DNA of 64,000 nt from a virus: IMG/VR virus record IMGVR_UViG_3300042542_002916, positions 12,206 through 76,205 of that record, one strand, 5' to 3'. Shown here piece after piece: positions 1 to 32,847 of this stretch. How positions within the stretch are numbered: the first letter of the stretch is position 1; every line of letters begins with the position of its first letter. The notes below the pieces were generated by a model. It searched no databases. It was not told the DNA's origin and saw nothing but the letters and a program-made list of their open reading frames with translations. The translations under genes and the position numbers were made by a program.

Positions 1-1719
1 CCTTGCTATCTAGAAGTAAGCGGTCCTTTTACTGGTCCAGGTAGAATTTTTAACAGAACAACAGAAGAACTTATTCTTATTACTCAAGGTCTAAAAGGAA
101 GTATTGTTAGTTCTATTGTCAACAAGCAGTTGATCTTTAATGTGGAAACTCTTGAGGATATAGCAACTCTGACTACCACCACTGCTCATAGGTTTACTGT
201 AGGAAGTAGCATCTTTGTCTCTGGTTTAGGTTCTCCTTTTGATGGAGAGCAGATCATAACTTCAATCCCTACAGACACCACATTTACCTATGTTGCTGGT
301 GCAGCATCAATCAGGTCTGTAACACACAAGGCTCTTGCTTCAAGCGTAGCTACATTAGAGACAACAGCTGCTCATGGTTTTACAACTGGTCAACAAATCC
401 TAATTAATGGTGTAGATGCATTGTTTGACGGAACATATACGATTACCTCAACACCTACTTCTAGCAAGTTTACTTACGCAAAAACTCGCGTACCGCCCAG
501 AACAATTACAGCTAAGGTACTTGTCTCAAACATTGCAACTTTAACTACTTCTGACGCTCATCAATTTATTATCGGTGAGCAGGTGACAATCGCTGATGTA
601 GATGTCAACTTTAATGGCGTGTACACAATTGTTGCTACACCATCTACAACCGAGTTTAGCTACGCTGCTACTCGTACAAACGCTCGTTTTGTGAATAATA
701 AATCTATGGCTGCAGATGTTGTTACATTGACAACCACGGTTCCACATGGCTTTGTGCCTAATGAAACAGTCAACATTTCTAATATTGACTTATCTCTCAA
801 TGGTGGCTACACCATTACAGCAACTCCAACCTCTACAACTTTCTCATACAAGCGTCCTCGCGCAACTCAGAGAAGTATTATAGTAAAAGCTATTTCCTCT
901 AATACAGCAACTCTCACAACTTCAGAGCCTCATGGTTATGTAGTGGGGGAAAAAGTTGTTGTAGAAAACGTCGGTTCTCCATTTGATGGAACATACACAA
1001 TCACTAGCCTGCCAAGTAACTCAACATTTACTTATGCAAAAACAGCTTCTGATTTAATTGCTACAGCCGTCACAGACGCCACAGTAAGAGCTGGAAGTCG
1101 TAAGATTAAATCTCGTCAGTTGGTTGGTAACTCCGTGACTATCTCAACTATAAACACACACGGTGTAATCCTCGGGGAGCAAGTCACTATTGTAGGTGTC
1201 GGTTCTCCATTTGATGGAACATACACCGTTACATCAGTTCCAACTAATACCAGCTTTACTTACGCAAAAGTAGATACAAACGTTGCTTTAGCAAATGTCG
1301 ATACTGATGGTGTTGTAGAAATGCCAGGAACTATTACATCAACTGGTGTAACACCAGACGGTCTTGCTTCTGTTGCAGGTTCTCTTGTGTTTCAGGCAGC
1401 TACTGGAACAGCAAGCGTTTCTGACACAATTGCAAGAATTGTAGCTTCTGGAAAAGCAATCAAAACTAACAACGTAACCTTCACCCCAGGTATTAGTGGA
1501 GCAACAGCAGTTCTTCAAGCAGACATTCTTGAGATTGATACTCAAAACAGAGAAGTTGCTTTTAATGGTGAACTTGAAGGAGCTAGAGGACGCATTGATG
1601 TTCTTGCTGACTTTATCAAGCTTGCTCCTGGAGATAATGAGATAGAATTTGAAGACACTGGTGCTCCAGAGGGAACAGCAAGTCTTCGGGTGTATTACCG
1701 CTCTGGATGGCTTGGATAA
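1..1719 (+). CDS. Distal tail protein (Dit)-like, with six inserted ~60-aa beta domains (E1 FCCH-like repeats); 5' end lies outside the window
   Basis: Frame is open from base 1 (PCYLEVSGPFTGPG...), so the 130 start is an artefact. C-terminus ILEIDTQNREVAFNG...FIKLAPGDNEIEF...YYRSGW is the typical Dit ending. Six repeats of ATLTTxxxHGFxxGxxVxIxxVxxxFDGTYTITxxPTxxxFTY. Confidence 0.75.
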   Translation, partial: PCYLEVSGPFTGPGRIFNRTTEELILITQGLKGSIVSSIVNKQLIFNVETLEDIATLTTTTAHRFTVGSSIFVSGLGSPFDGEQIITSIPTDTTFTYVAGAASIRSVTHKALASSVATLETTAAHGFTTGQQILINGVDALFDGTYTITSTPTSSKFTYAKTRVPPRTITAKVLVSNIATLTTSDAHQFIIGEQVTIADVDVNFNGVYTIVATPSTTEFSYAATRTNARFVNNKSMAADVVTLTTTVPHGFVPNETVNISNIDLSLNGGYTITATPTSTTFSYKRPRATQRSIIVKAISSNTATLTTSEPHGYVVGEKVVVENVGSPFDGTYTITSLPSNSTFTYAKTASDLIATAVTDATVRAGSRKIKSRQLVGNSVTISTINTHGVILGEQVTIVGVGSPFDGTYTVTSVPTNTSFTYAKVDTNVALANVDTDGVVEMPGTITSTGVTPDGLASVAGSLVFQAATGTASVSDTIARIVASGKAIKTNNVTFTPGISGATAVLQADILEIDTQNREVAFNGELEGARGRIDVLADFIKLAPGDNEIEFEDTGAPEGTASLRVYYRSGWLG

Positions 1720-1746: not shown

Positions 1747-3762
1747 ATGGCTCTTCAGACATCTGTTGAATATAGATATTTTCTAACAGACCTCCTTACT
1801 AACTCTGTTATCTCTGAAATACCCTTTAAAGGGGTTTCTTATCAACGTGTGAATCGTCGTGCTGGAGAGTTTTCTGGGGACATACCTTTCATTGAGGCAA
1901 CAAAAGGTTTAGATATTTACGAAGCAACAATGCCGGGAAGAACTGGCTTGTATGTAATGCGTAATCAAGTCTGTGTGTGGGGTGGGATTATTTGGTCACG
2001 TTCTTATAGCGTAGAAAGCAAAACTCTCTCTGTAAGCGCTTCAGAATTTACAAGCTATTTTTACCACCGAAATCTATGGCAAACTCTTCAATACGGTTCC
2101 GAGTTTGTTGGTATCTCTTCTTTTGCCGTATCTAGTGGAACAGGAACTATTACAACAGAAGTAACCCATGGGTTTGTTGTTGGTCAAAAAGTAAAAATTA
2201 CTTTCACCAGTCCGCTTGTTGATGGTGTCCACACAGTTACGGCTGTTCCTGCAACAAACCAATATCAATTTACAACAACTTCTGCAAACGGTTCTGGACC
2301 AAGTACAAGTGGAGCTTGTAGAAGCTTGGTTGACACATACGATTTTGCACGAGATTTGGTTTATAGAGTTGCAACTGATTTAGGTGGAATTAACTTTGCC
2401 AATGAAGTTATTAAGCCAGCTAAAGAGCTACAAGGCTCTGTTATCTCTAAGCGTCGCTCGGCTGGTCTTGTAACTCTACGAACATCTTCACCGCATGAGG
2501 CAATACCTGGTCAAGAGATTGAGGTTGTAGAAGTAGGCTCTGGTTTAGATGGTCTTCATGTTATTACAGAAGTCCCAAATTCTTCAACAATTGTTTATAG
2601 CTTAAGTGGTGCAGATTTGTCGGAGACTGCCATATCTGGTATCCGTTCTCTAAACGTAATTAGAAAAAAACTTGTAGACAATCTTGCAACTATTACCTTA
2701 GATAGACCTCATGGAGCAGCGGTAGGGCAAACTGTAATTTTGGAAGGTATAGATGCTTTCTATACAAAAAAACTAGATTCAACATTTAACGGTCGATTTA
2801 CTATTACAGGTATTCCATCAGCTACAGAATTTACTTTTATCTCTGGAGGAATTTTAAATGTAATAGACCCTGCTACTGGCAATGGACTTGTTGTAGCTGG
2901 CGGTATTGCAACCTTTGGTTCAAAATTTATTTATGGAGACTTTGGAAGTTTTACATCTAACTCTGATATTGGAATTCTCTTTGAGAGTCTTGCAAAAAGT
3001 GGTGAATATCAAGATACCCAAATCTTTCGTGGTTTTGAGCAAAGAAGTGTTGGTGAAGTTCTAGAGACATATTCAAACATTGTTAAAGGTGGTTTTGAGT
3101 ATCGAATCGACTGTGACTATGACTTTGATACTGCACAGTTCACAAGGACTTTTAGAATTCTACCAATTGAGAGGTCCCAGTCTCCTTTAGGTTTTGTGTA
3201 CACAGCTGAGGAGCTAGGCGCAGATCAGATTGTTTTTGAGTATCCAGGCAATATCTCCACCTTTACCGTCGAAGAAAGCTCGGAAGATTCTGCAACAAGA
3301 TTTTTTGTTGTTGGAAATATAGAAGACTTATCAGACGCTGCAAGTCAGCCATATGCGGGTGCTTCAGCTAAAGACCTTCTTGATAATAAAACTGGAAGAA
3401 GTTGGCCTATTCTTGACCAAGTAGAGACTCTTGATAAAGTCCAAGATGAGCTAACTCTATATAACTACGCAGAAGATTATTTATACGAGTCAAGACCTCC
3501 TATTGGTAAATACAGCATTACCGTAAATGGTTCTCTTGCTCCAATTATTGGTTCCTATTTCCCGGGGGATTGGTGCTCTGTCATCATTGATGATGAATAT
3601 GTTCGTCAGCGTTTAGCAAATGACCAAGAGCCTAGAGATGACCTGTTGATTAGGAAAATTAACTCGTATACGGTTAATGTCCCAGACAGTCCTACATTTC
3701 CAGAATCAGTACAATTAGAACTAATTACAGACTGGAAAGTCGATAAAAGAGTGGATGCATAA
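1747..3762 (+). CDS. Minor tail / baseplate hub protein (ReqiPepy6 gp37-like, Tal position) with three FCCH-like inserts
   Basis: Follows Dit. N-terminal YRYFLTDLLT...EIPF...CVWGGIIWSR resembles actinophage minor tail proteins. Three HG-containing repeats of the same type as in Dit. Confidence 0.7.
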   Translation: MALQTSVEYRYFLTDLLTNSVISEIPFKGVSYQRVNRRAGEFSGDIPFIEATKGLDIYEATMPGRTGLYVMRNQVCVWGGIIWSRSYSVESKTLSVSASEFTSYFYHRNLWQTLQYGSEFVGISSFAVSSGTGTITTEVTHGFVVGQKVKITFTSPLVDGVHTVTAVPATNQYQFTTTSANGSGPSTSGACRSLVDTYDFARDLVYRVATDLGGINFANEVIKPAKELQGSVISKRRSAGLVTLRTSSPHEAIPGQEIEVVEVGSGLDGLHVITEVPNSSTIVYSLSGADLSETAISGIRSLNVIRKKLVDNLATITLDRPHGAAVGQTVILEGIDAFYTKKLDSTFNGRFTITGIPSATEFTFISGGILNVIDPATGNGLVVAGGIATFGSKFIYGDFGSFTSNSDIGILFESLAKSGEYQDTQIFRGFEQRSVGEVLETYSNIVKGGFEYRIDCDYDFDTAQFTRTFRILPIERSQSPLGFVYTAEELGADQIVFEYPGNISTFTVEESSEDSATRFFVVGNIEDLSDAASQPYAGASAKDLLDNKTGRSWPILDQVETLDKVQDELTLYNYAEDYLYESRPPIGKYSITVNGSLAPIIGSYFPGDWCSVIIDDEYVRQRLANDQEPRDDLLIRKINSYTVNVPDSPTFPESVQLELITDWKVDKRVDA

Positions 3763-3764
3763 AA

Positions 3765-5366
3765 ATGGCAACTAGAAGAAGTGCAAGAAGTTCCTCTATT
3801 ACTGGGTCTATTAGCGATGTTATGCGTCGTATTAAATATCTAGAATCCCGACCTGCTCCGTCAAAGCTTGCTAACCAAGTTGTGCGACGAGACAACATTC
3901 AACCACGAGCTATAGCAACTGACCAAATTGCTCTTCAAGCTATTACAAACAGTCAAATGGCTGCAGACGCAATTGCTCAAGCGCAGTTGCAGGCTAACTC
4001 TGTTGGTAATGATGAGCTGGCTGACAACTCTGTTAACAGTGCTGAGATTGTAGATAATGCTGTTGGCAGTTCTGAAATTGCATCTGGTGCTGTTAAAGCA
4101 GATGAGATTGATGTAGATGCGGTTGGAAGCTCAGAAATTGGAACTAATGCTGTAGATAGCTCAGAGATAAATGCTAACGCTGTCGGTAATGATGAATTGG
4201 GTACAGACTCGGTTCGCTCAGATGAGATTTTTGCTGATTCTGTTGGTAACTCAGAAATTGGATCTAACGCCGTAGATAGTGCTGAAATTACTACTAATGC
4301 CGTGGGTGCCGATGAAATCGCTACTAACGGTGTTGGTGCTGATGAAATTGCCTTAGATGGTGTTGGCAGTTCAGAGATTTCGACTAATGCTGTAGATAGT
4401 GCAGAGATTAATGCTAATGCTGTTACTGCTGATGAAATCGCTACTAACGGTGTTGGCACTGATGAGATTGCTCTAGACGGTGTTGGAAGCTCTGAGATTG
4501 CAACAAACGCTGTAGATACTGCTGAGATTGCAACAAACGGTGTTGGTGCTGATGAAATTGCAACAAATGCTGTTGGTGTTGATGAAATTGGTTTAGATGC
4601 TGTAGGTAACAATGAGCTTGGTAACCTTGCTGTAGATACAGCAAACATTGTAGATTCGGCTGTTACTGCTAGCAAAATAGCTACAGGTTCTATTAATGGA
4701 TCTTTAATCACTCCAACTCACATTGCAACTAACTCTGTAGGTCAAGCAACCATTGGCCCAAACGCAGTTGGTTCTGGTGAAATTATTAACGGTGCAGTTG
4801 GTTCTGATGAAATTGCTGCAGGAGCAGTAACTTCAGGTAAAATCGGGGCTAATGCCGTAACTTACGATAAGCTTGGATCAAGCACCATCGGACCCGGAGC
4901 AAATCAAGTTGCTCGCGGAAGTCATACGCATAGTGATTTTTCTAGTAGCACGCACAATCACAACGTAACAATTCCATCTGGTGGAGCACACAGCCACATT
5001 GGAGTTTCTGGAGCTCACGCTCACTCAGGATCAACAGGCGGACCTTCATCTCGAAGATTTAAAACTGAAATCTCTGACTACATGCCAGAAGATTTGCAAA
5101 AAATTCTTCAGTTAAATTTAGTTAAATATAAATACCACAAAAGATGGACGCCACTTAATAGAGGTCGTGAGTGGAGCTACGGCTATATCGCGGAAGACGT
5201 AGAAGATTTAGGCGTTCAAGAAATTATTGAGTATGATGATAAAAAACGACCTTCCGCAATTAATTACGGTCTTTTATCGACATTTGTCTTAGAGATTGTA
5301 AAGGTTCAGCAAAATGAGATAGACTTACTCAAGCAGCAACTAGCAAAGTTGATGGAGACAAAATGA
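3765..5366 (+). CDS. Tail fibre/spike with long decapeptide repeat and C-terminal intramolecular chaperone (peptidase S74)
   Basis: Dozens of (N/D)AVG(S/A)(S/D)EIA(T)-type repeats; His-rich linker; PSSRRFKTEI...YGYIAEDV...INYG plus terminal coiled coil fit the S74 chaperone. Confidence 0.8.
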   Translation: MATRRSARSSSITGSISDVMRRIKYLESRPAPSKLANQVVRRDNIQPRAIATDQIALQAITNSQMAADAIAQAQLQANSVGNDELADNSVNSAEIVDNAVGSSEIASGAVKADEIDVDAVGSSEIGTNAVDSSEINANAVGNDELGTDSVRSDEIFADSVGNSEIGSNAVDSAEITTNAVGADEIATNGVGADEIALDGVGSSEISTNAVDSAEINANAVTADEIATNGVGTDEIALDGVGSSEIATNAVDTAEIATNGVGADEIATNAVGVDEIGLDAVGNNELGNLAVDTANIVDSAVTASKIATGSINGSLITPTHIATNSVGQATIGPNAVGSGEIINGAVGSDEIAAGAVTSGKIGANAVTYDKLGSSTIGPGANQVARGSHTHSDFSSSTHNHNVTIPSGGAHSHIGVSGAHAHSGSTGGPSSRRFKTEISDYMPEDLQKILQLNLVKYKYHKRWTPLNRGREWSYGYIAEDVEDLGVQEIIEYDDKKRPSAINYGLLSTFVLEIVKVQQNEIDLLKQQLAKLMETK

Positions 5367-29187: not shown

Positions 29188-32100
29188 TTAGGACACAACT
29201 CCGATTTTGTAACGGACAACAACAATTCCTGAACCGCCAGAACCGCCATAGTTATTACTGCTGTAGTGAGAACCTCCACCACCACCAGAACCTGTGTTTT
29301 GTGCTGCGTCGCCACCTGGAACGTTTGTCTGAGAGTTAATGCTTCCGTATCCACCAGGGTTAGCAGTATTAATACCATCAACACCACGGTTATCAAAGTT
29401 GTTAGCAGCACCACCGCCACCGCCTCCGCGACCACCAGAGTTGTCTTGGTATGCGGAGTAGTTAGAACCACCACCACCAGCTGCCCAATAGAAGCTCGGG
29501 CCCAGAATAGTATTTAGTGTTCCAGCACCACCTCTAGGGGGATTGCTTTGACCAGCAGTAGCAGAACCACCACCACCAGCTGGGTACCAAAAACCTGAAC
29601 CAGTTCCACCGTCTTTACCTTGCGAAGCAGTTGCTGTACCACGACGGCCTCCACCATATTCACCGTCAGTAGATCTGTTGCTTTGAGCGTTTCCGCCACC
29701 ACCAGATGCACCACCACCAGAACCTACAGTCTGACCATTATTCAAACCACCAGCTGGGTTGTTACCACGGTCGTGGTTAGATGCACCACCACCACCACCA
29801 AACGCTACTAAGTTAGCGTTAGTTCCAATAAGTGAAGAGCTTGCACCTTCAAAACCTCGACGGTTACCAACACCTGAGTTGTTACCGCTACCACCAGCAC
29901 CTACCACTACTGCATAGTTTCCTGCTGCGGCTGTAAATGTGCCAGCTAGATAACCACCAGCTCCACCGCCGCCGCCCATATCTGAACCGCCGCTACCGCC
30001 TCCACCAATTACCATGTATTCAATGGTGTTGCTTCCTGTAGTTGCGTTACCAGCTACTGAAACTGCAAGAGTTGCTGATCCAACGCTTGTAAATCTGTGA
30101 ACAGCATAAATGTCGTTTCCTACTGTAAGGCTTGATACAGACCCTCCAGTTGCAACAGGGTAGTCACCGCTAGGACTTCCAGTAATTGCGTAACGAAGTA
30201 CAACAATTCCTGAACCACCAGCACCACCAGCACCAGTGTAGTGAGAACCTCCACCACCACCAGAACCTGTGTTTGCTCCTGCGTTACCACCAGCAACACT
30301 TGAGTTGGTGTTAATGTTACCGAAACCACCAGAAGTTGCTGCATTGATACCATCAAGACCAGGGTTGCTGAAGTTGTTATAAGCACCACCGCCACCGCCT
30401 CCGCGACCACCACGGTTGTCTTGGTATGCGGAGTAGTTAGCACCACCACCGCCAGCTGCCCAGAAATAGTTAACGCCTAAAATAGCATTTGCAGTTCCTA
30501 TACCACCTGTAGGTGGGTTGCTTCGACCAGCACCACCAGAACCGCCACCGCTACCTGGATACCATGTACCAGAACCAACTCCGCCGTCTGTACCCTGACC
30601 AGCAGTTCCTGTACCTCTACGGCTACCGCCATATGCACCATCTGGGCTGCGATTATCTTGTGCACCACCGCCACCACCTGATGAACCTCCACCAGAGGCA
30701 ACAGTTTGACCGTTGTTCACACCACCAGCTGGGTTGTTACCACGGTCGTGGTTAGATGCACCACCACCACCACCAAGGGCGGTTATGTTTACACCAGTTC
30801 CAATAAGTGAAGATACGTCACCTTCAAAACCTCGACGAGCAACTTGAGGTCCTGGCGCTCCTGCACCACCAGCACCTACGACTACTGCATAATCTCCTAC
30901 TGAAGGAGTAAATGTTCCAGCTCTATAGCCACCAGCTCCACCGCCGCCGCCCATATCTGAGCCACCGCCGCCTCCGCCACCTACTACTAGATACTCAACA
31001 CTTGATCCACTTGGGACAGATGAAACAGAAAAAGTAGAAGAACCAACAGCGGTAAATGCGTGTACTCTAAAGAATCTTCCTTCGCTATATGCATTTGGAA
31101 GAATTGTTCCACCAGTTGCAGTGATAGGGATAAAAGTAGCTTCATTGACTGTAAAATTGTGAGCATCGTAGACTGTTTCTACAAAATAAAACTTTTGGTC
31201 GTAGTTTGATACAAAATTACCACCAACAGAAGGAGCTGCATATTGAAGCATCTCGTTTTTAACAAAATTGGAATTTTTAACATGAAAAATGTCTTTATCT
31301 ATAGATACACCAATTTTTGTAAATGTTTGACTGCCAGAACCGCCAGATGGAGTCAAACTGGAAGCATCGGTAGGGAGGCCCTTCAACCTAATGTTATATA
31401 AATTTGGACCAGCTTCGGTAATTTGAGAAATAAAATATGTAGTGTTATTTGCTAAACTAGTTGCAGCAGCGCCTGAAGTTGAATAGCGAACCATCGCTCC
31501 AACGTAGTAATCAAGACCCGCTCCAGCGGTTACTTGAACTAAAATATCTGTAGCTGTAAAACCAAGAATAGTGCAGTTACCGTTTGGTGCTGTAGCACTA
31601 GCACCAGCTGCTCCAACATAACCTTGATTACCGCCATCAAATTCTAGAGGGGTTTCAAGTAGAACTGTAATAGGGATTTCTGTAACAGGGTTACGGTTGT
31701 TTCCAGCAAAAGTACGAGCTTGATTAGCTAATTGCATTGTTCCAGACATAGTGGAAACAATGTCAATTACATCTCCGTCTGGAGTTGCGCTTACTTGAAA
31801 AGTAGATACACCTGAAACATTGAGAGAGTTAGTTGTTTTTAGAAAAACAATTCCTCTAGGATTATCAAAGAAATACCCAGTCGATGCTGGAACTGTTAAA
31901 TTGTAATATAAAGGTGTTCCAAGAGGTTGATTAGCAAAATTTTCTGTTCCATGTGTAACAGCAATTGTGTCGTTTGTTGTATTTACTCCTGTAATTGTGC
32001 TTGTTGCACCGCCAACTACTCCGCTGTTGGACCAATCAATATTAAAAGTTGAAAGAGTGTTAGAACCATCAAAAGTCTGAGCTGTTGCAGAGTTAGATGA

Positions 32101-32763
32101 GTCAAAAGATTTAGCTGAAGTGTTTGAAGCTTCAAACTCCTGAGAAATTGTTGAGTTAAGGTTGAGGAAGTAGAACGGGGTATTAAGACCAAAACCGTGA
32201 GTAGAGTCTGTTTTTACAGTAAGGGTTGAGACTGGCTCTGCGTCTGTTGTAATACCTTCTGCATCTGCAATACGAATCTGAGAGCCCTGAAAGAATTCTC
32301 CAGTAATAATCGACGTGTAAAGGTCTTCAATAGCATTATTACCATTTTGCTCGTCTTTACATAGATATGTAAAGGTAGTCCCGTTAGGGATAGAGTTAAT
32401 AATGTAAGCACCGTCTGCGGTAACTGACTTAGTTCCAGTTACGTTAATTGGAATACCGACAGCTAAACCATGTTCTGTAGCTGTAACTACAGTGATTTCA
32501 CGAGTTCCAGTGTTCGTAGAGATAGATGTGATACCTGGAATTGTGGTATCACCGCTCTTAGAGAAGAACGAAGGGGTATTGTTAATAAGCTCAACGGTTT
32601 CCCACTTAGTAGGCTGTAGACCATACTCAAAGTCGGTATCAATTAAGTTTTCTGGCTGGGAAATACGGAGCTTGGTTACTGGATCAATAAACTCTTTTGG
32701 AAAACGAATCTCTCCGCCTGTGCCGCTAGAGCTGCTGCCGCCGCCACCTAAGAAACCTGGCAT
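29188..32763 (-). CDS. Virion structural protein (1191 aa) with two tandem Gly-rich domains
   Basis: N-terminal KLRISQPENLIDTDFEYGLQPTKWE; two copies of VH.FT.VGS...EY.V.GGGG.GG...GGSGIVV.RY. Confidence 0.8.
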   Translation of the reverse strand: MPGFLGGGGSSSSGTGGEIRFPKEFIDPVTKLRISQPENLIDTDFEYGLQPTKWETVELINNTPSFFSKSGDTTIPGITSISTNTGTREITVVTATEHGLAVGIPINVTGTKSVTADGAYIINSIPNGTTFTYLCKDEQNGNNAIEDLYTSIITGEFFQGSQIRIADAEGITTDAEPVSTLTVKTDSTHGFGLNTPFYFLNLNSTISQEFEASNTSAKSFDSSNSATAQTFDGSNTLSTFNIDWSNSGVVGGATSTITGVNTTNDTIAVTHGTENFANQPLGTPLYYNLTVPASTGYFFDNPRGIVFLKTTNSLNVSGVSTFQVSATPDGDVIDIVSTMSGTMQLANQARTFAGNNRNPVTEIPITVLLETPLEFDGGNQGYVGAAGASATAPNGNCTILGFTATDILVQVTAGAGLDYYVGAMVRYSTSGAAATSLANNTTYFISQITEAGPNLYNIRLKGLPTDASSLTPSGGSGSQTFTKIGVSIDKDIFHVKNSNFVKNEMLQYAAPSVGGNFVSNYDQKFYFVETVYDAHNFTVNEATFIPITATGGTILPNAYSEGRFFRVHAFTAVGSSTFSVSSVPSGSSVEYLVVGGGGGGGSDMGGGGGAGGYRAGTFTPSVGDYAVVVGAGGAGAPGPQVARRGFEGDVSSLIGTGVNITALGGGGGASNHDRGNNPAGGVNNGQTVASGGGSSGGGGGAQDNRSPDGAYGGSRRGTGTAGQGTDGGVGSGTWYPGSGGGSGGAGRSNPPTGGIGTANAILGVNYFWAAGGGGANYSAYQDNRGGRGGGGGGAYNNFSNPGLDGINAATSGGFGNINTNSSVAGGNAGANTGSGGGGGSHYTGAGGAGGSGIVVLRYAITGSPSGDYPVATGGSVSSLTVGNDIYAVHRFTSVGSATLAVSVAGNATTGSNTIEYMVIGGGGSGGSDMGGGGGAGGYLAGTFTAAAGNYAVVVGAGGSGNNSGVGNRRGFEGASSSLIGTNANLVAFGGGGGASNHDRGNNPAGGLNNGQTVGSGGGASGGGGNAQSNRSTDGEYGGGRRGTATASQGKDGGTGSGFWYPAGGGGSATAGQSNPPRGGAGTLNTILGPSFYWAAGGGGSNYSAYQDNSGGRGGGGGGAANNFDNRGVDGINTANPGGYGSINSQTNVPGGDAAQNTGSGGGGGSHYSSNNYGGSGGSGIVVVRYKIGVVS

Positions 32764-32847
32764 TAGTTACTACCTCTCTCGGGAGCTAAAAGATTTGTTA
32801 ATAGAATAACAGTCTTTGTACATAATGATTTTGTAAGATTCATATAA

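What the first reader, a model, noticed from the sequence alone, without database searches (positions are those of the whole stretch)
1..1719. Nested (Russian-doll) domain insertions in the distal tail protein
Seen: six ~60-aa repeats. Repeats 5 and 6 end FTYAK plus a ~15-aa closing strand (ASDLIATAVTDATV; TNVALANVDTDGVV). Repeats 1-4 stop at F(T/S)Y and run straight into the next repeat with no closing strand. After repeat 6, exactly four closing-strand-like segments follow (nt ~1321-1512): PGTITSTGVTPDGLASV / AGSLVFQAATGTASV / SDTIARIVASGKAIK / TNNVTFTPGISGATAV; then the Dit core resumes. Inference: each domain is inserted into a loop of the previous one, 1(2(3(4(5,6)))), so the chain goes out and returns, forming a rigid arm anchored at both ends in the Dit ring. 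Evolved Dits with single inserted CBMs are established; a four-deep nesting would be unusual.
Basis: partly seen in the sequence, partly recalled or inferred. Interest (0 to 1): 0.7.

Follow-up and report, generated by a model that had tools for sequence, protein, structure and literature searches.

The report
Nested barrel arm in phage Dit
The baseplate ring protein (Dit) of this uncultured lake phage most likely carries an arm of six small beta-barrels plugged into one another like Russian dolls, a way of building so far solved only for cyanobacterial RNA polymerase.

Summary
The ORF is the C-terminal 572 aa of a 775-aa distal tail protein lying between the tape measure and Tal genes. Six FCCH-like modules of 62 aa sit in one loop of its C-terminal Dit domain. 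Modules 1-4 abut with zero spacer, modules 5 and 6 each carry a 14-16-aa hairpin, and 64 aa (four hairpin-sized pieces) precede the Dit core.

AlphaFold was closed, so I tested the nesting by comparison. Insert length grows by about 77 aa per module in relatives with 1, 2, 6 or 7 modules, and the extra hairpins pile up at the end. Classical relatives lack the whole insert. In 7-module relatives a complete module sits inside the hairpin of module 6. Other relatives have a module split in two halves by a whole module.

Covariation pairs late segments with modules in reverse order. The R4/segment-1 column pair ranks 1 of 106,030. An R2/segment-3 pair swaps charge and never shows like charges (0 of 158). 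Stricter phylogenetic tests confirm R4-s1, support R1-s4 marginally, and not the other two.

Verdict: nesting supported (about 0.75), but not shown in 3D. The principle is solved for cyanobacterial RNA polymerase Si3. The scan noted the same architecture on other DNA (e1-5997089).

The parts
1..114 (+). Strands of the C-terminal Dit (galectin-like) domain that precede the insert (aa 204-241 of the 775-aa protein). The gene start lies 608 nt upstream of the window.
   Evidence: Searches give the full ORF. One search shows that the same strand in insert-free relatives runs directly into the D.LEID strand.
115..300 (+). Module 1 (aa 242-303): 16-aa lead strand plus 46-aa core (beta1-beta4). Open form, with no hairpin after it.
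   Evidence: the HMM junction gap is 0.
301..486 (+). Module 2 (aa 304-365), open form.
   Evidence: Residues 323 and 312 covary with 682 in late segment 3.
487..672 (+). Module 3 (aa 366-427), open form.
   Evidence: Residue 376 covaries with 667 in late segment 2.
673..858 (+). Module 4 (aa 428-489), open form. It is the proposed host of modules 5 and 6.
   Evidence: The pair 436/650 is the top covarying column pair of the insert. The per-branch rate correlation with segment 1 is 0.20, with 0 of 2000 permutations reaching it.
859..1086 (+). Module 5 (aa 490-551) with its own closing hairpin c5 (aa 552-565). Closed form.
   Evidence: In relative P0016 the Pfam E1_FCCH profile, positions 5-66 of 70, spans the core and this hairpin. 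It serves as a positive control for the covariation tests.
1087..1320 (+). Module 6 (aa 566-627) with its own closing hairpin c6 (aa 628-643). Closed form.
   Evidence: In 7-module relatives an extra complete module sits inside this hairpin. It serves as a positive control for the covariation tests.
1321..1374 (+). Late segment 1 (aa 644-661), the proposed beta5-beta6 hairpin of module 4.
1375..1419 (+). Late segment 2 (aa 662-676), the proposed hairpin of module 3.
   Evidence: r 0.07; it is the column maximum but weak; pair 376/667.
1420..1464 (+). Late segment 3 (aa 677-691), the proposed hairpin of module 2.
   Evidence: r 0.25; charge-swap pair 323/682. The per-branch test did not support it.
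1465..1512 (+). Late segment 4 (aa 692-707), the proposed hairpin of module 1. It is the last piece of the insert.
   Evidence: r 0.12; r 0.11, 63 of 2000 permutations reached it. It is absent from insert-free relatives and present once in single-module relatives.
1513..1719 (+). The rest of the C-terminal Dit domain (aa 708-775) and the stop codon.
   Evidence: Pfam PF22768 SPP1_Dit: 35.4 bits against a cut-off of 25 and 36.4 bits on the window part.
1747..3762 (+). Tal-like next gene. It carries three copies of the same module, each followed by its own hairpin (at about nt 2095-2328, 2422-2637 and 2638-2919).
   Evidence: (phrog_1885, minor tail protein, E 3.5e-29), (3 HMM hits, gaps 47 and 10).

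Best explanation
This is an evolved distal tail protein. A 466-aa insert (aa 242-707) sits in one loop of its C-terminal galectin-like domain and forms an arm of six FCCH-like beta-barrel modules built by recursive domain insertion.

Proposed path of the chain. It leaves the Dit domain and lays down the lead strand and strands beta1-beta4 of module 1. Instead of finishing that barrel it starts module 2, and the same happens for modules 3 and 4. Inside the open loop of module 4 it makes two complete barrels, modules 5 and 6, each with its own beta5-beta6 hairpin. It then returns, giving one hairpin each to modules 4, 3, 2 and 1 in that order, and re-enters the Dit domain next to where it left. 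Every junction along the arm would therefore be crossed twice, which should make the arm stiffer than beads on a string.

Consequence. A Dit hexamer would carry six such arms around the tail tip. Modules 1-4 would form the shaft and the variable modules 5-6 the tip (7 or 8 modules in relatives).

Shown here: the element order, how the insert scales in relatives, insertions of whole modules into modules in relatives, and covariation between late segments and modules in reverse order.

Inferred: that the late hairpins occupy the beta5-beta6 position of the barrels, that the arm is stiff, and that it serves host-surface contact or spacing.
For: 1. Identity as Dit. The upstream ORF matches tape measure PHROGs, the downstream ORF matches a minor tail/Tal PHROG, and PF22768 scores above its cut-off. 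Insert-free relatives P0158, P0147 and P0221 join the two flanks directly, so all of aa 242-707 is insert.

2. The hairpin belongs to the fold. In relative P0016 the Pfam E1_FCCH profile, positions 5-66 of 70, covers the core of module 5 plus c5. On open cores the matches stop at profile positions 44-54. The FCCH domain is a six-stranded closed barrel (PMC13576161, passage read).

3. Scaling. I parsed 196 of 271 proteins.
- One module: insert 69-92 aa in 36 of 38.
- One open junction: insert 141-151 aa and tail 26-30 aa in the 4 cleanly parsed proteins.
- Six modules: insert 462-500 aa, tail 78-94 aa (107 proteins).
- Seven modules: insert 540-562 aa in 19 of 20.
That is about 77 aa per module while open junctions keep a gap of 0. 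Read by eye, P0139 has one hairpin after its single core, and P0168, P0228 and P0206 have two after their second core.

4. Natural experiments.
- In the 5 seven-module relatives I displayed, a block of lead, core and hairpin lies between the conserved halves of hairpin c6.
- In P0172 (shown; P0202 has the same gap pattern) and in P0124, one module appears as an N-half and a C-half. The HMM positions are 5-36 and 29-60, with a whole module between them.

5. Covariation in 158 family members.
- Residual block-distance correlations are c5-R5 0.31, c6-R6 0.26, s1-R4 0.34, s2-R3 0.07, s3-R2 0.25 and s4-R1 0.12. Each is the maximum of its column (6 of 6). Mantel permutations reaching the observed value were 0, 0, 0, 25, 0 and 5 of 999. 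The pattern is the same in a 96-sequence non-redundant set.
- Per-branch substitution-rate residuals over 303 branches give 5 of 6 column maxima at the predicted partner. The predicted assignment ranks 2 of 720.
- Column pair 436/650 (R4 lead with s1) ranks 1 of 106,030. Pair 323/682 (R2 with s3) ranks 33. Pair 323/682 shows -/+ in 99 sequences, +/- in 22 and like charges in 0 of 158.
- Changes on the same branch: 14 for 436/650, 7 for 323/682 and 7 for 376/667. The branch-length-weighted P values are 0.017, 0.005 and 0.0004. That is as good as the within-module controls, but the pairs were chosen after seeing the MI.
- The register recurs. Lead positions 9-11 pair with hairpin position +2/+3 in R6-c6, R4-s1, R3-s2 and R2-s3.
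Against: - No structure could be predicted or compared, so the barrel-completing role of the late segments is inferred.
- With 79 phylogenetically independent sister pairs, only the control R5-c5 was significant (rho 0.31, p 0.006). R4-s1 gave 0.18 (p 0.12), and only 3 of 6 column maxima were the predicted partner.
- In the per-branch test s3-R2 was -0.03 and s2-R3 was not significant (345 of 2000). The best assignment swapped the partners of s3 and s4.
- In block-level top-8 MI, the predicted partner of s2, s3 and s4 came second, behind R6 or R5. The first run, with 119 sequences, was inconclusive.
- The late segments resemble the true hairpins only weakly.
- Single-module relatives are most like R5 or R6, not R1. 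The best-match counts were 12, 9, 5, 4, 3 and 3 of 36 for R5, R6, R3, R2, R1 and R4, so there is no orthology trail for R1 plus s4.
- P0138 has 4 modules but a tail of 80 aa, longer than expected.
- Microbacterium phage Dits carry about 7 N-half modules but only 2 C-halves, so part-modules may be stable without a partner.
- P0001 itself gives no Pfam FCCH hit at E up to 0.1; the window part gave none at E up to 1.
- Covariation cannot tell contacts within one chain from contacts between chains of the hexamer.
Confidence: 0.75

Rival explanations
1. Beads on a string with a return strap. Modules 1-4 are complete five-stranded units on their own (lead plus beta1-beta4). The 64-aa late stretch is only a strap that runs back along them to reach the insertion loop. 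It touches the modules in reverse order but does not enter the barrels.
For: An insert in a loop must return somehow. The late segments resemble c5 and c6 only weakly. N-half modules without partners exist in Microbacterium phage Dits. Covariation shows contact, not which strand position is filled.
Against: Modules that are last in line, or that stand alone, always carry a hairpin. This holds for the single-module relatives, for modules 5 and 6, for the major tail protein and for the Tal copies. The Pfam FCCH profile includes that hairpin. Strap length scales at one hairpin length per open module. The lead-to-hairpin register is the same in closed and open modules.
Confidence: 0.13
2. Swap between subunits. 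The late segments complete barrels 4 to 1 of a neighbouring Dit chain in the hexamer rather than of their own chain, cross-linking the six arms.
For: Covariation cannot separate contacts within a chain from contacts between chains.
Against: Segment 4 runs without a spacer into the chain's own Dit strand, and the lead of module 1 starts without a spacer after the preceding strand of the same loop. The simplest closure is therefore within the chain. Single-module relatives have the same layout with no room for a swap.
Confidence: 0.07
3. The late stretch is a separate small domain or a flexible linker with no specific relation to modules 1-4, and the six modules fold back by some other route.
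For: There is no direct structural evidence either way. The stretch is rich in T, S, A, G and V, so sequence patterns in it are weak.
Against: The top covarying column pair of the whole insert links it to module 4, and a charge-swap pair links it to module 2. Its length tracks the number of open modules across relatives. It is absent when the modules are absent. Segments 2 and 4 are among the best-conserved parts of the insert, with mean column entropy 0.84 and 0.66.
Confidence: 0.05

Closest known systems
Si3 insertion in the trigger loop of cyanobacterial RNA polymerase beta' (crystal and cryo-EM structures; PMC10895346, passages read; PMC13114784, abstract and passages read)
   Same: Both are long arms inserted into one loop of a host domain and built from many copies of one small beta fold. 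Some copies are continuous and others are assembled from distant parts of the chain as it folds back on itself. In Si3, SBHM-1, -6, -7 and -8 are continuous and SBHM-2 to -5 are discontinuous. Here modules 5 and 6 are continuous and modules 1-4 discontinuous. The published arm measures 150 x 50 A.
   Different: The fold family differs (SBHM there, FCCH-like here, with no SBHM-type Pfam hit). So do the host protein, the biology and the oligomeric setting (a six-fold ring on a virion). The nesting here is inferred from sequence, not solved. In this family whole modules enter at three different places in the barrel.
[quoted passage not shown]
   Same: The N- and C-terminal regions align with a classical Dit, and an internal insertion forms a separate protruding region. 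The gene sits between the tape measure and Tal genes.
   Different: Published inserts are one or two carbohydrate-binding modules joined to the core by loops. Here the insert is six copies of an FCCH-like barrel with a proposed five-level nesting. No CBM family matched and no binding function is shown.
E1_FCCH domain (Pfam PF16190) and FCCH domains on siphophage tail tube proteins gp39 and gp13 (PMC13576161, passages read)
   Same: Relatives P0009 and P0016 pass the Pfam cut-off (33.6 and 31.4 bits against 29.5). The domain is a small six-stranded barrel displayed on the outside of tail structures. In this phage the same module is also found on the major tail protein.
   Different: P0001 itself gives no FCCH hit. 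The modules have an extra 16-aa lead strand that the profile does not cover. No solved relative is detectable by sequence; the best PDB E-values were 0.026 to 0.35, on an unrelated hub motif. Published FCCH decorations are single and uninterrupted.
Mycobacteriophage Bxb1 Dit with three additional CTE-like domains
   Same: It is an actinobacteriophage Dit enlarged by several copies of a small domain that also decorates other virion proteins.
   Different: I could not establish any relationship. Neither tblastn of P0001 against phage genomes nor the PDB profile searches returned Bxb1 proteins, apart from one chance-level row (E 6.4). Without a model no fold comparison was possible.

Membership tests
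Distal tail protein (Dit) of siphophages | The gene lies directly between the tape measure gene and the Tal/hub gene. | tested here: met
   The upstream ORF matches 21 PHROGs, mostly tape measure families (best E 1.7e-18). The downstream ORF matches phrog_1885, minor tail protein (E 3.5e-29). The gene order is given.
Distal tail protein (Dit) of siphophages | A C-terminal galectin-like Dit domain. | tested here: met
   PF22768 SPP1_Dit scores 35.4 bits against a cut-off of 25, at aa 689-773.
Distal tail protein (Dit) of siphophages | An N-terminal ring-forming domain and a hexameric ring in the virion. | tested here: inconclusive
   Residues 29-224 match phrog_5577, minor tail protein (E 2.5e-17). 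There is no Pfam match for the N-terminal part. The oligomeric state cannot be tested with these tools.
Evolved Dit | The flanks align with a classical Dit and an internal insertion lies in the C-terminal domain. | tested here: met
   Relatives P0158, P0147 and P0221 have no insert and join the flanks directly. In P0001 the insert is 466 aa at the same loop.
Evolved Dit | The insert consists of carbohydrate-binding modules that promote adsorption. | tested here: not met
   There is no CBM family hit in Pfam at E up to 0.1; on the window part, none at E up to 1. The insert is made of FCCH-like modules. Binding itself cannot be tested here, so the protein is an evolved Dit by architecture only.
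E1_FCCH-like barrel (PF16190) | A profile match above Pfam's gathering score. | tested here: inconclusive
   P0001 gives no hit. Relatives P0009 (68% identical) and P0016 (66%) score 33.6 and 31.4 bits against 29.5. P0042 and P0168 fall below the cut-off.
E1_FCCH-like barrel (PF16190) | A six-stranded closed antiparallel barrel. | not testable with these tools
Recursive (nested) domain insertion, as in RNA polymerase Si3 | A host module is interrupted by a complete module, and both flanks are recognisable as parts of one module. | tested here: met
   In relatives P0172 and P0124 the HMM positions are 5-36, then a whole module, then 29-60. P0202 has the same gap pattern. In the 7-module relatives a whole module lies inside hairpin c6. 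For modules 1-4 of the window the C-terminal flank is only a 15-18-aa hairpin, so it is recognised by count, position and covariation rather than by the HMM.
Recursive (nested) domain insertion, as in RNA polymerase Si3 | The returning pieces contact their host modules in reverse order. | tested here: met
   All six column maxima fall on the predicted partner in the all-pairs test and 5 of 6 in the per-branch test. Top residue pairs exist for R4-s1, R2-s3 and R3-s2. The signal is weak for R1-s4, and the sister-pair test was underpowered.
Recursive (nested) domain insertion, as in RNA polymerase Si3 | Discontinuous domains seen in a three-dimensional structure. | not testable with these tools

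The most novel reading that the evidence does not exclude
This Dit family grows a virion arm by repeatedly plugging a new copy of one barrel into the innermost copy, and different lineages use three different entry points in the fold. These are after beta4 (modules 1-4 here), in the beta5-beta6 turn (the 7-module relatives) and in the beta2-beta3 loop (P0124, P0172).

Counting the Dit domain as host, the window protein would be nested five levels deep. The 7-module relatives would reach six levels and the 8-module P0128 seven. That would equal or exceed the six levels reported as the extreme among 2.7 million classified domains. It would be the first such case in a virus structural protein, in a family with hundreds of members in lake metagenomes.
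Probability: 0.5. Interest if true: 0.75.

Novelty: new variant of a known kind. Interest (0 to 1): 0.6.

Why it matters
Evolved Dits are known as loop inserts of one or two sugar-binding modules. This one would show that a phage can build a long, doubly threaded and therefore probably stiff arm on its baseplate out of a single small fold.

The family also offers natural intermediates with 0, 1, 2, 6, 7 and 8 modules. These show how such Russian-doll proteins grow, which is hard to study in the only solved example, cyanobacterial RNA polymerase.

There is a practical warning as well. Domain finders and annotation pipelines that expect contiguous domains will miscount or mis-bound these modules. 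The 15-aa orphan strands at the end of the insert are not linkers.

The family is abundant in uncultured freshwater phages of actinobacterial type (585 clusters matched). The arm is therefore probably part of how a common group of lake phages meets its host.

Tried and rejected
- Sequence searches of the PDB found nothing significant. I tried the whole-family profile, a six-repeat profile, module 5 alone and a profile of six closed modules from three proteins of this phage. The best hit was a hub-protein motif at E 0.026 to 0.35, which I treat as chance.
- An ungapped PSSM of hairpins from 35 single-module relatives ranked c5 first and s3 third in P0001, but stayed below the 95th percentile of shuffles.
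- I looked for an orthology trail, with the single module of small relatives closest to R1 and its hairpin closest to s4. It was not found: the best matches were R5 or R6 in 21 of 36.
- BLAST HSP boundaries between P0001 and smaller relatives were blurred by the repeats and were not used.
- The first MI run, with 119 sequences, was inconclusive at block level.
- A second homologue search seeded with P0129 added only about 33 new sequences, because the family is compact.
- Half-module HMMs were too insensitive for the 25-aa C-half to give counts, so I dropped that count.
- A scan of all module-hairpin column pairs for changes on the same branch was dominated by columns with few changes and was not used (second part).
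- Literature searches for a published description of nested modules in a Dit or in FCCH-decorated phage proteins found none.
- I considered and rejected the idea that segment 4 belongs to the Dit core. The Pfam alignment starts at aa 689, but insert-free relatives lack the segment.
Full report
WHAT IS THERE. The window is bases 12206-76205 of a 76,205-base IMG/VR virus record. The finding's ORF is cut by the window edge. The full gene encodes 775 aa, P0001. The upstream ORF matches tape measure families. The downstream ORF matches a minor tail/Tal family and carries three copies of the same repeat. P0001 matches Pfam SPP1_Dit at its C-terminus above the curated cut-off. It is the distal tail protein.

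The nearest cultured relatives by tblastn are Actinomycetia phage DSL-LC01 from a lake (45.7% identity over 54% of the query) and large Microbacterium phages. The family is large in metagenomes. A word-indexed search gave 585 clusters at E up to 0.001 among 8000 scored candidates. An exhaustive search of 50%-identity representatives gave 1639.

THE OBSERVATION. There are six repeats with cores starting at aa 258, 320, 382, 444, 506 and 582. They are 32-39% identical to the first and have 7 invariant columns. No DNA-level tandem repeat is present. Each unit is a 16-aa lead strand plus a 46-aa core. Junctions 1-2, 2-3, 3-4 and 4-5 have no spacer. After cores 5 and 6 come 14 and 16 extra residues. 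After those, 64 residues (aa 644-707, nt 1321-1512) precede the point where the Dit domain resumes.

WHAT THE MODULE IS. Relatives 66-68% identical to P0001 match Pfam E1_FCCH above its cut-off. In P0016 the match (profile 5-66 of 70) runs from the start of core 5 through its 14-aa appendix, whereas matches on open cores end at profile positions 44-54. P0001 itself gives no FCCH hit. The FCCH domain is described as a six-stranded closed Greek-key barrel that decorates some siphophage tail tubes (PMC13576161, passages read). On this reading a 46-aa core holds four strands and the appendix is the fifth and sixth. No solved relative was detectable by sequence.

THE INSERT AND ITS SCALING. Three relatives have no insert at all, and in them the two flanking Dit strands are joined by a short loop. 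The whole of aa 242-707, including late segment 4, is therefore insert. I parsed 196 of 271 collected proteins with HMMs for the two flanks and the repeat.
- One repeat: insert 69-92 aa in 36 of 38, tail after the core 14-22 aa in 35 of 38.
- Two repeats across an open junction (4 cleanly parsed proteins): insert 141-151 aa, tail 26-30 aa.
- Six repeats (107 proteins): insert 462-500 aa, tail 78-94 aa.
- Seven repeats: insert 540-562 aa in 19 of 20, tail 87-95 aa.

The insert thus grows by about 77 aa per repeat, while open junctions stay at zero and the surplus collects at the end. By eye, P0139 has one hairpin-like piece after its core, and P0168, P0228 and P0206 have two after their second core. 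Less tidy cases exist. P0138 has 4 repeats and an 80-aa tail, and P0152 has 5 repeats and an 81-aa tail with junction spacers of 2-11 aa. Because the 6- and 7-repeat proteins are close kin, this amounts to about five independent architectures, not 196 independent data points.

NATURAL EXPERIMENTS. In the five 7-repeat relatives I displayed, the alignment places the extra block of 76-84 aa (a lead, a core and a hairpin) between the two conserved halves of hairpin c6. In P0172 the repeat HMM hits positions 5-36, then a whole module (5-57) with a hairpin, then positions 29-60. P0202 shows the same gap pattern. P0159 and P0171 show the same layout by eye. P0124 has module 6 split in the same way by module 7. 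Whole modules inserted into modules are therefore directly visible in this family, at two other points of the fold.

DO THE LATE SEGMENTS BELONG TO MODULES 4, 3, 2 AND 1? Their likeness to c5 and c6 is weak. In profile-profile comparisons of 34 segments, each of the six hairpin-like pieces has another of the six as best partner. The mean score is 6.2 against 3.0. A PSSM from single-repeat relatives was not significant. No orthology trail from single-module relatives to R1 and s4 was found.

Covariation was more telling. I realigned 170 proteins of 765-880 aa and kept 158.
- Block distances. After removing the whole-protein distance, each hairpin-like piece correlates best with its predicted module. 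The values are c5-R5 0.31, c6-R6 0.26, s1-R4 0.34, s2-R3 0.07, s3-R2 0.25 and s4-R1 0.12. Mantel permutations reaching these values were 0, 0, 0, 25, 0 and 5 of 999. The pattern repeats in a 96-sequence non-redundant set and largely in random halves. In one half s2 tied between R2 and R3, and in the other s4 was beaten by R2 and R5.
- Stricter tests weaken it. With 79 independent sister pairs only R5-c5 was significant, although all six predicted pairs were positive and the reverse-order assignment was first of 24.
- Per-branch test. With parsimony-counted changes on 303 branches, R5-c5 gave 0.23, R4-s1 0.20, R6-c6 0.15 and R1-s4 0.11. Permutations reaching these were 0, 0, 11 and 63 of 2000. 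s2-R3 (0.05) and s3-R2 (-0.03) were not significant. The predicted assignment ranked 2 of 720.
- Single columns. Pair 436/650 (lead of module 4 with segment 1) is rank 1 of 106,030 pairs by corrected mutual information. Pair 323/682 (first strand of module 2 with segment 3, 359 residues apart) is rank 33. The latter reads -/+ in 99 sequences, +/- in 22 and like charges in none of 158, which is the signature of a salt bridge.
- Changes on the same branch. Such changes occurred on 14, 7 and 7 branches for 436/650, 323/682 and 376/667. The branch-length-weighted P values are 0.017, 0.005 and 0.0004, comparable with the within-module controls. These pairs were picked after the MI was seen.
- Register. 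Lead positions 9-11 pair with hairpin position +2/+3 in the closed module 6 and in R4-s1, R3-s2 and R2-s3.

READING. The chain most likely goes out through four unfinished barrels, makes two complete ones, and finishes the four in reverse order on the way back. I put this at about 0.75. Contact in reverse order is well supported for R4-s1, reasonably supported for R2-s3 and R3-s2 by residue pairs, and weakly supported for R1-s4. That the late pieces fill the fifth and sixth strand positions is inferred from three things: the FCCH profile, the rule that terminal or lone modules always carry a hairpin, and the shared register. Three rivals remain open: a return strap that only lies along complete five-stranded units, a swap between chains of the hexamer, and an unrelated linker. 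They carry the rest of the probability.

FUNCTION. Nothing here tests function. The same module sits on the major tail protein, Dit and Tal of this phage. The tip elements (hairpins c5 and c6 and module 6) are the most variable in sequence, and the tip is also where module number varies among relatives. The shaft and its return pieces are more conserved. That fits a stiff spacer or probe with an adaptable tip, six per baseplate, but this is inference.

WHAT IS KNOWN. Evolved Dits carry one or two carbohydrate-binding modules in an internal insertion (PMC10688798, abstract and passages read). Nesting of many copies of one small beta fold inside a loop is solved for cyanobacterial RNA polymerase Si3. 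There eight SBHM domains form a 150 A arm, and four of them are built from distant parts of the chain (PMC10895346, passages read). A 2026 survey of 2.7 million domains names six-level nesting in that protein as the extreme (PMC13114784, abstract and passages read). I found the Si3 precedent through, before seeing the earlier notes of this scan. Five literature searches found no description of nested modules in a Dit or in any FCCH-decorated phage protein. Supplements were closed. The scan itself had already noted the same architecture on other DNA (e1-5997089) and related nested fibres (e1-6028504, e1-5997095).

VERDICT. It is a new variant of a known kind, with interest 0.6.

Noticed in passing
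G000:C1:3837-4910 (locus L006; upstream of the window): The probable major tail protein (358-aa open frame) carries one copy of the same 62-aa module near its C-terminus, followed by its own hairpin. This is the closed form.
   Followed up: partly
window 1747-3762 (+): The Tal-like protein carries three copies of the module (at about nt 2095-2328, 2422-2637 and 2638-2919). Each has its own hairpin, so they stand in tandem rather than nested.
   Followed up: partly
window 3765-5366 (+): This fibre protein has a long run of short Ser/Glu/Ile-rich repeats. Its C-terminus matches Peptidase_S74, the intramolecular chaperone of endosialidase-type fibres (E 2e-08).
   Followed up: no
L005 (Microbacterium phage A3Wally gp98) and L004:691-3477 (phage Cece gp81): After the Dit core these Dits carry a C-terminal array of about seven 36-aa N-half modules (HMM positions about 2-38). 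One full module follows, then two C-half pieces stacked at the very end. The halves do not match one to one, which I cannot explain.
   Followed up: partly
protein P0123 aa 639-785 (relative, not in the window): A 147-aa Ala/Gln-rich stretch, probably helical, lies between module 6 and a seventh module, as if the tip were extended by a different kind of spacer.
   Followed up: no
proteins P0228, P0219, P0212 and A3Wally gp98 (relatives): Some relatives carry further large inserts between the N-terminal Dit domain and the C-terminal domain, or N-terminal extensions. These begin with motifs typical of carbohydrate-binding or jelly-roll modules. I did not analyse them.
   Followed up: no
window 29191-32766 (-): The 1192-aa minus-strand open frame has one detectable copy of the module (HMM positions 15-59). 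Earlier notes of the scan describe split and nested barrels in the giant proteins of this region.
   Followed up: no
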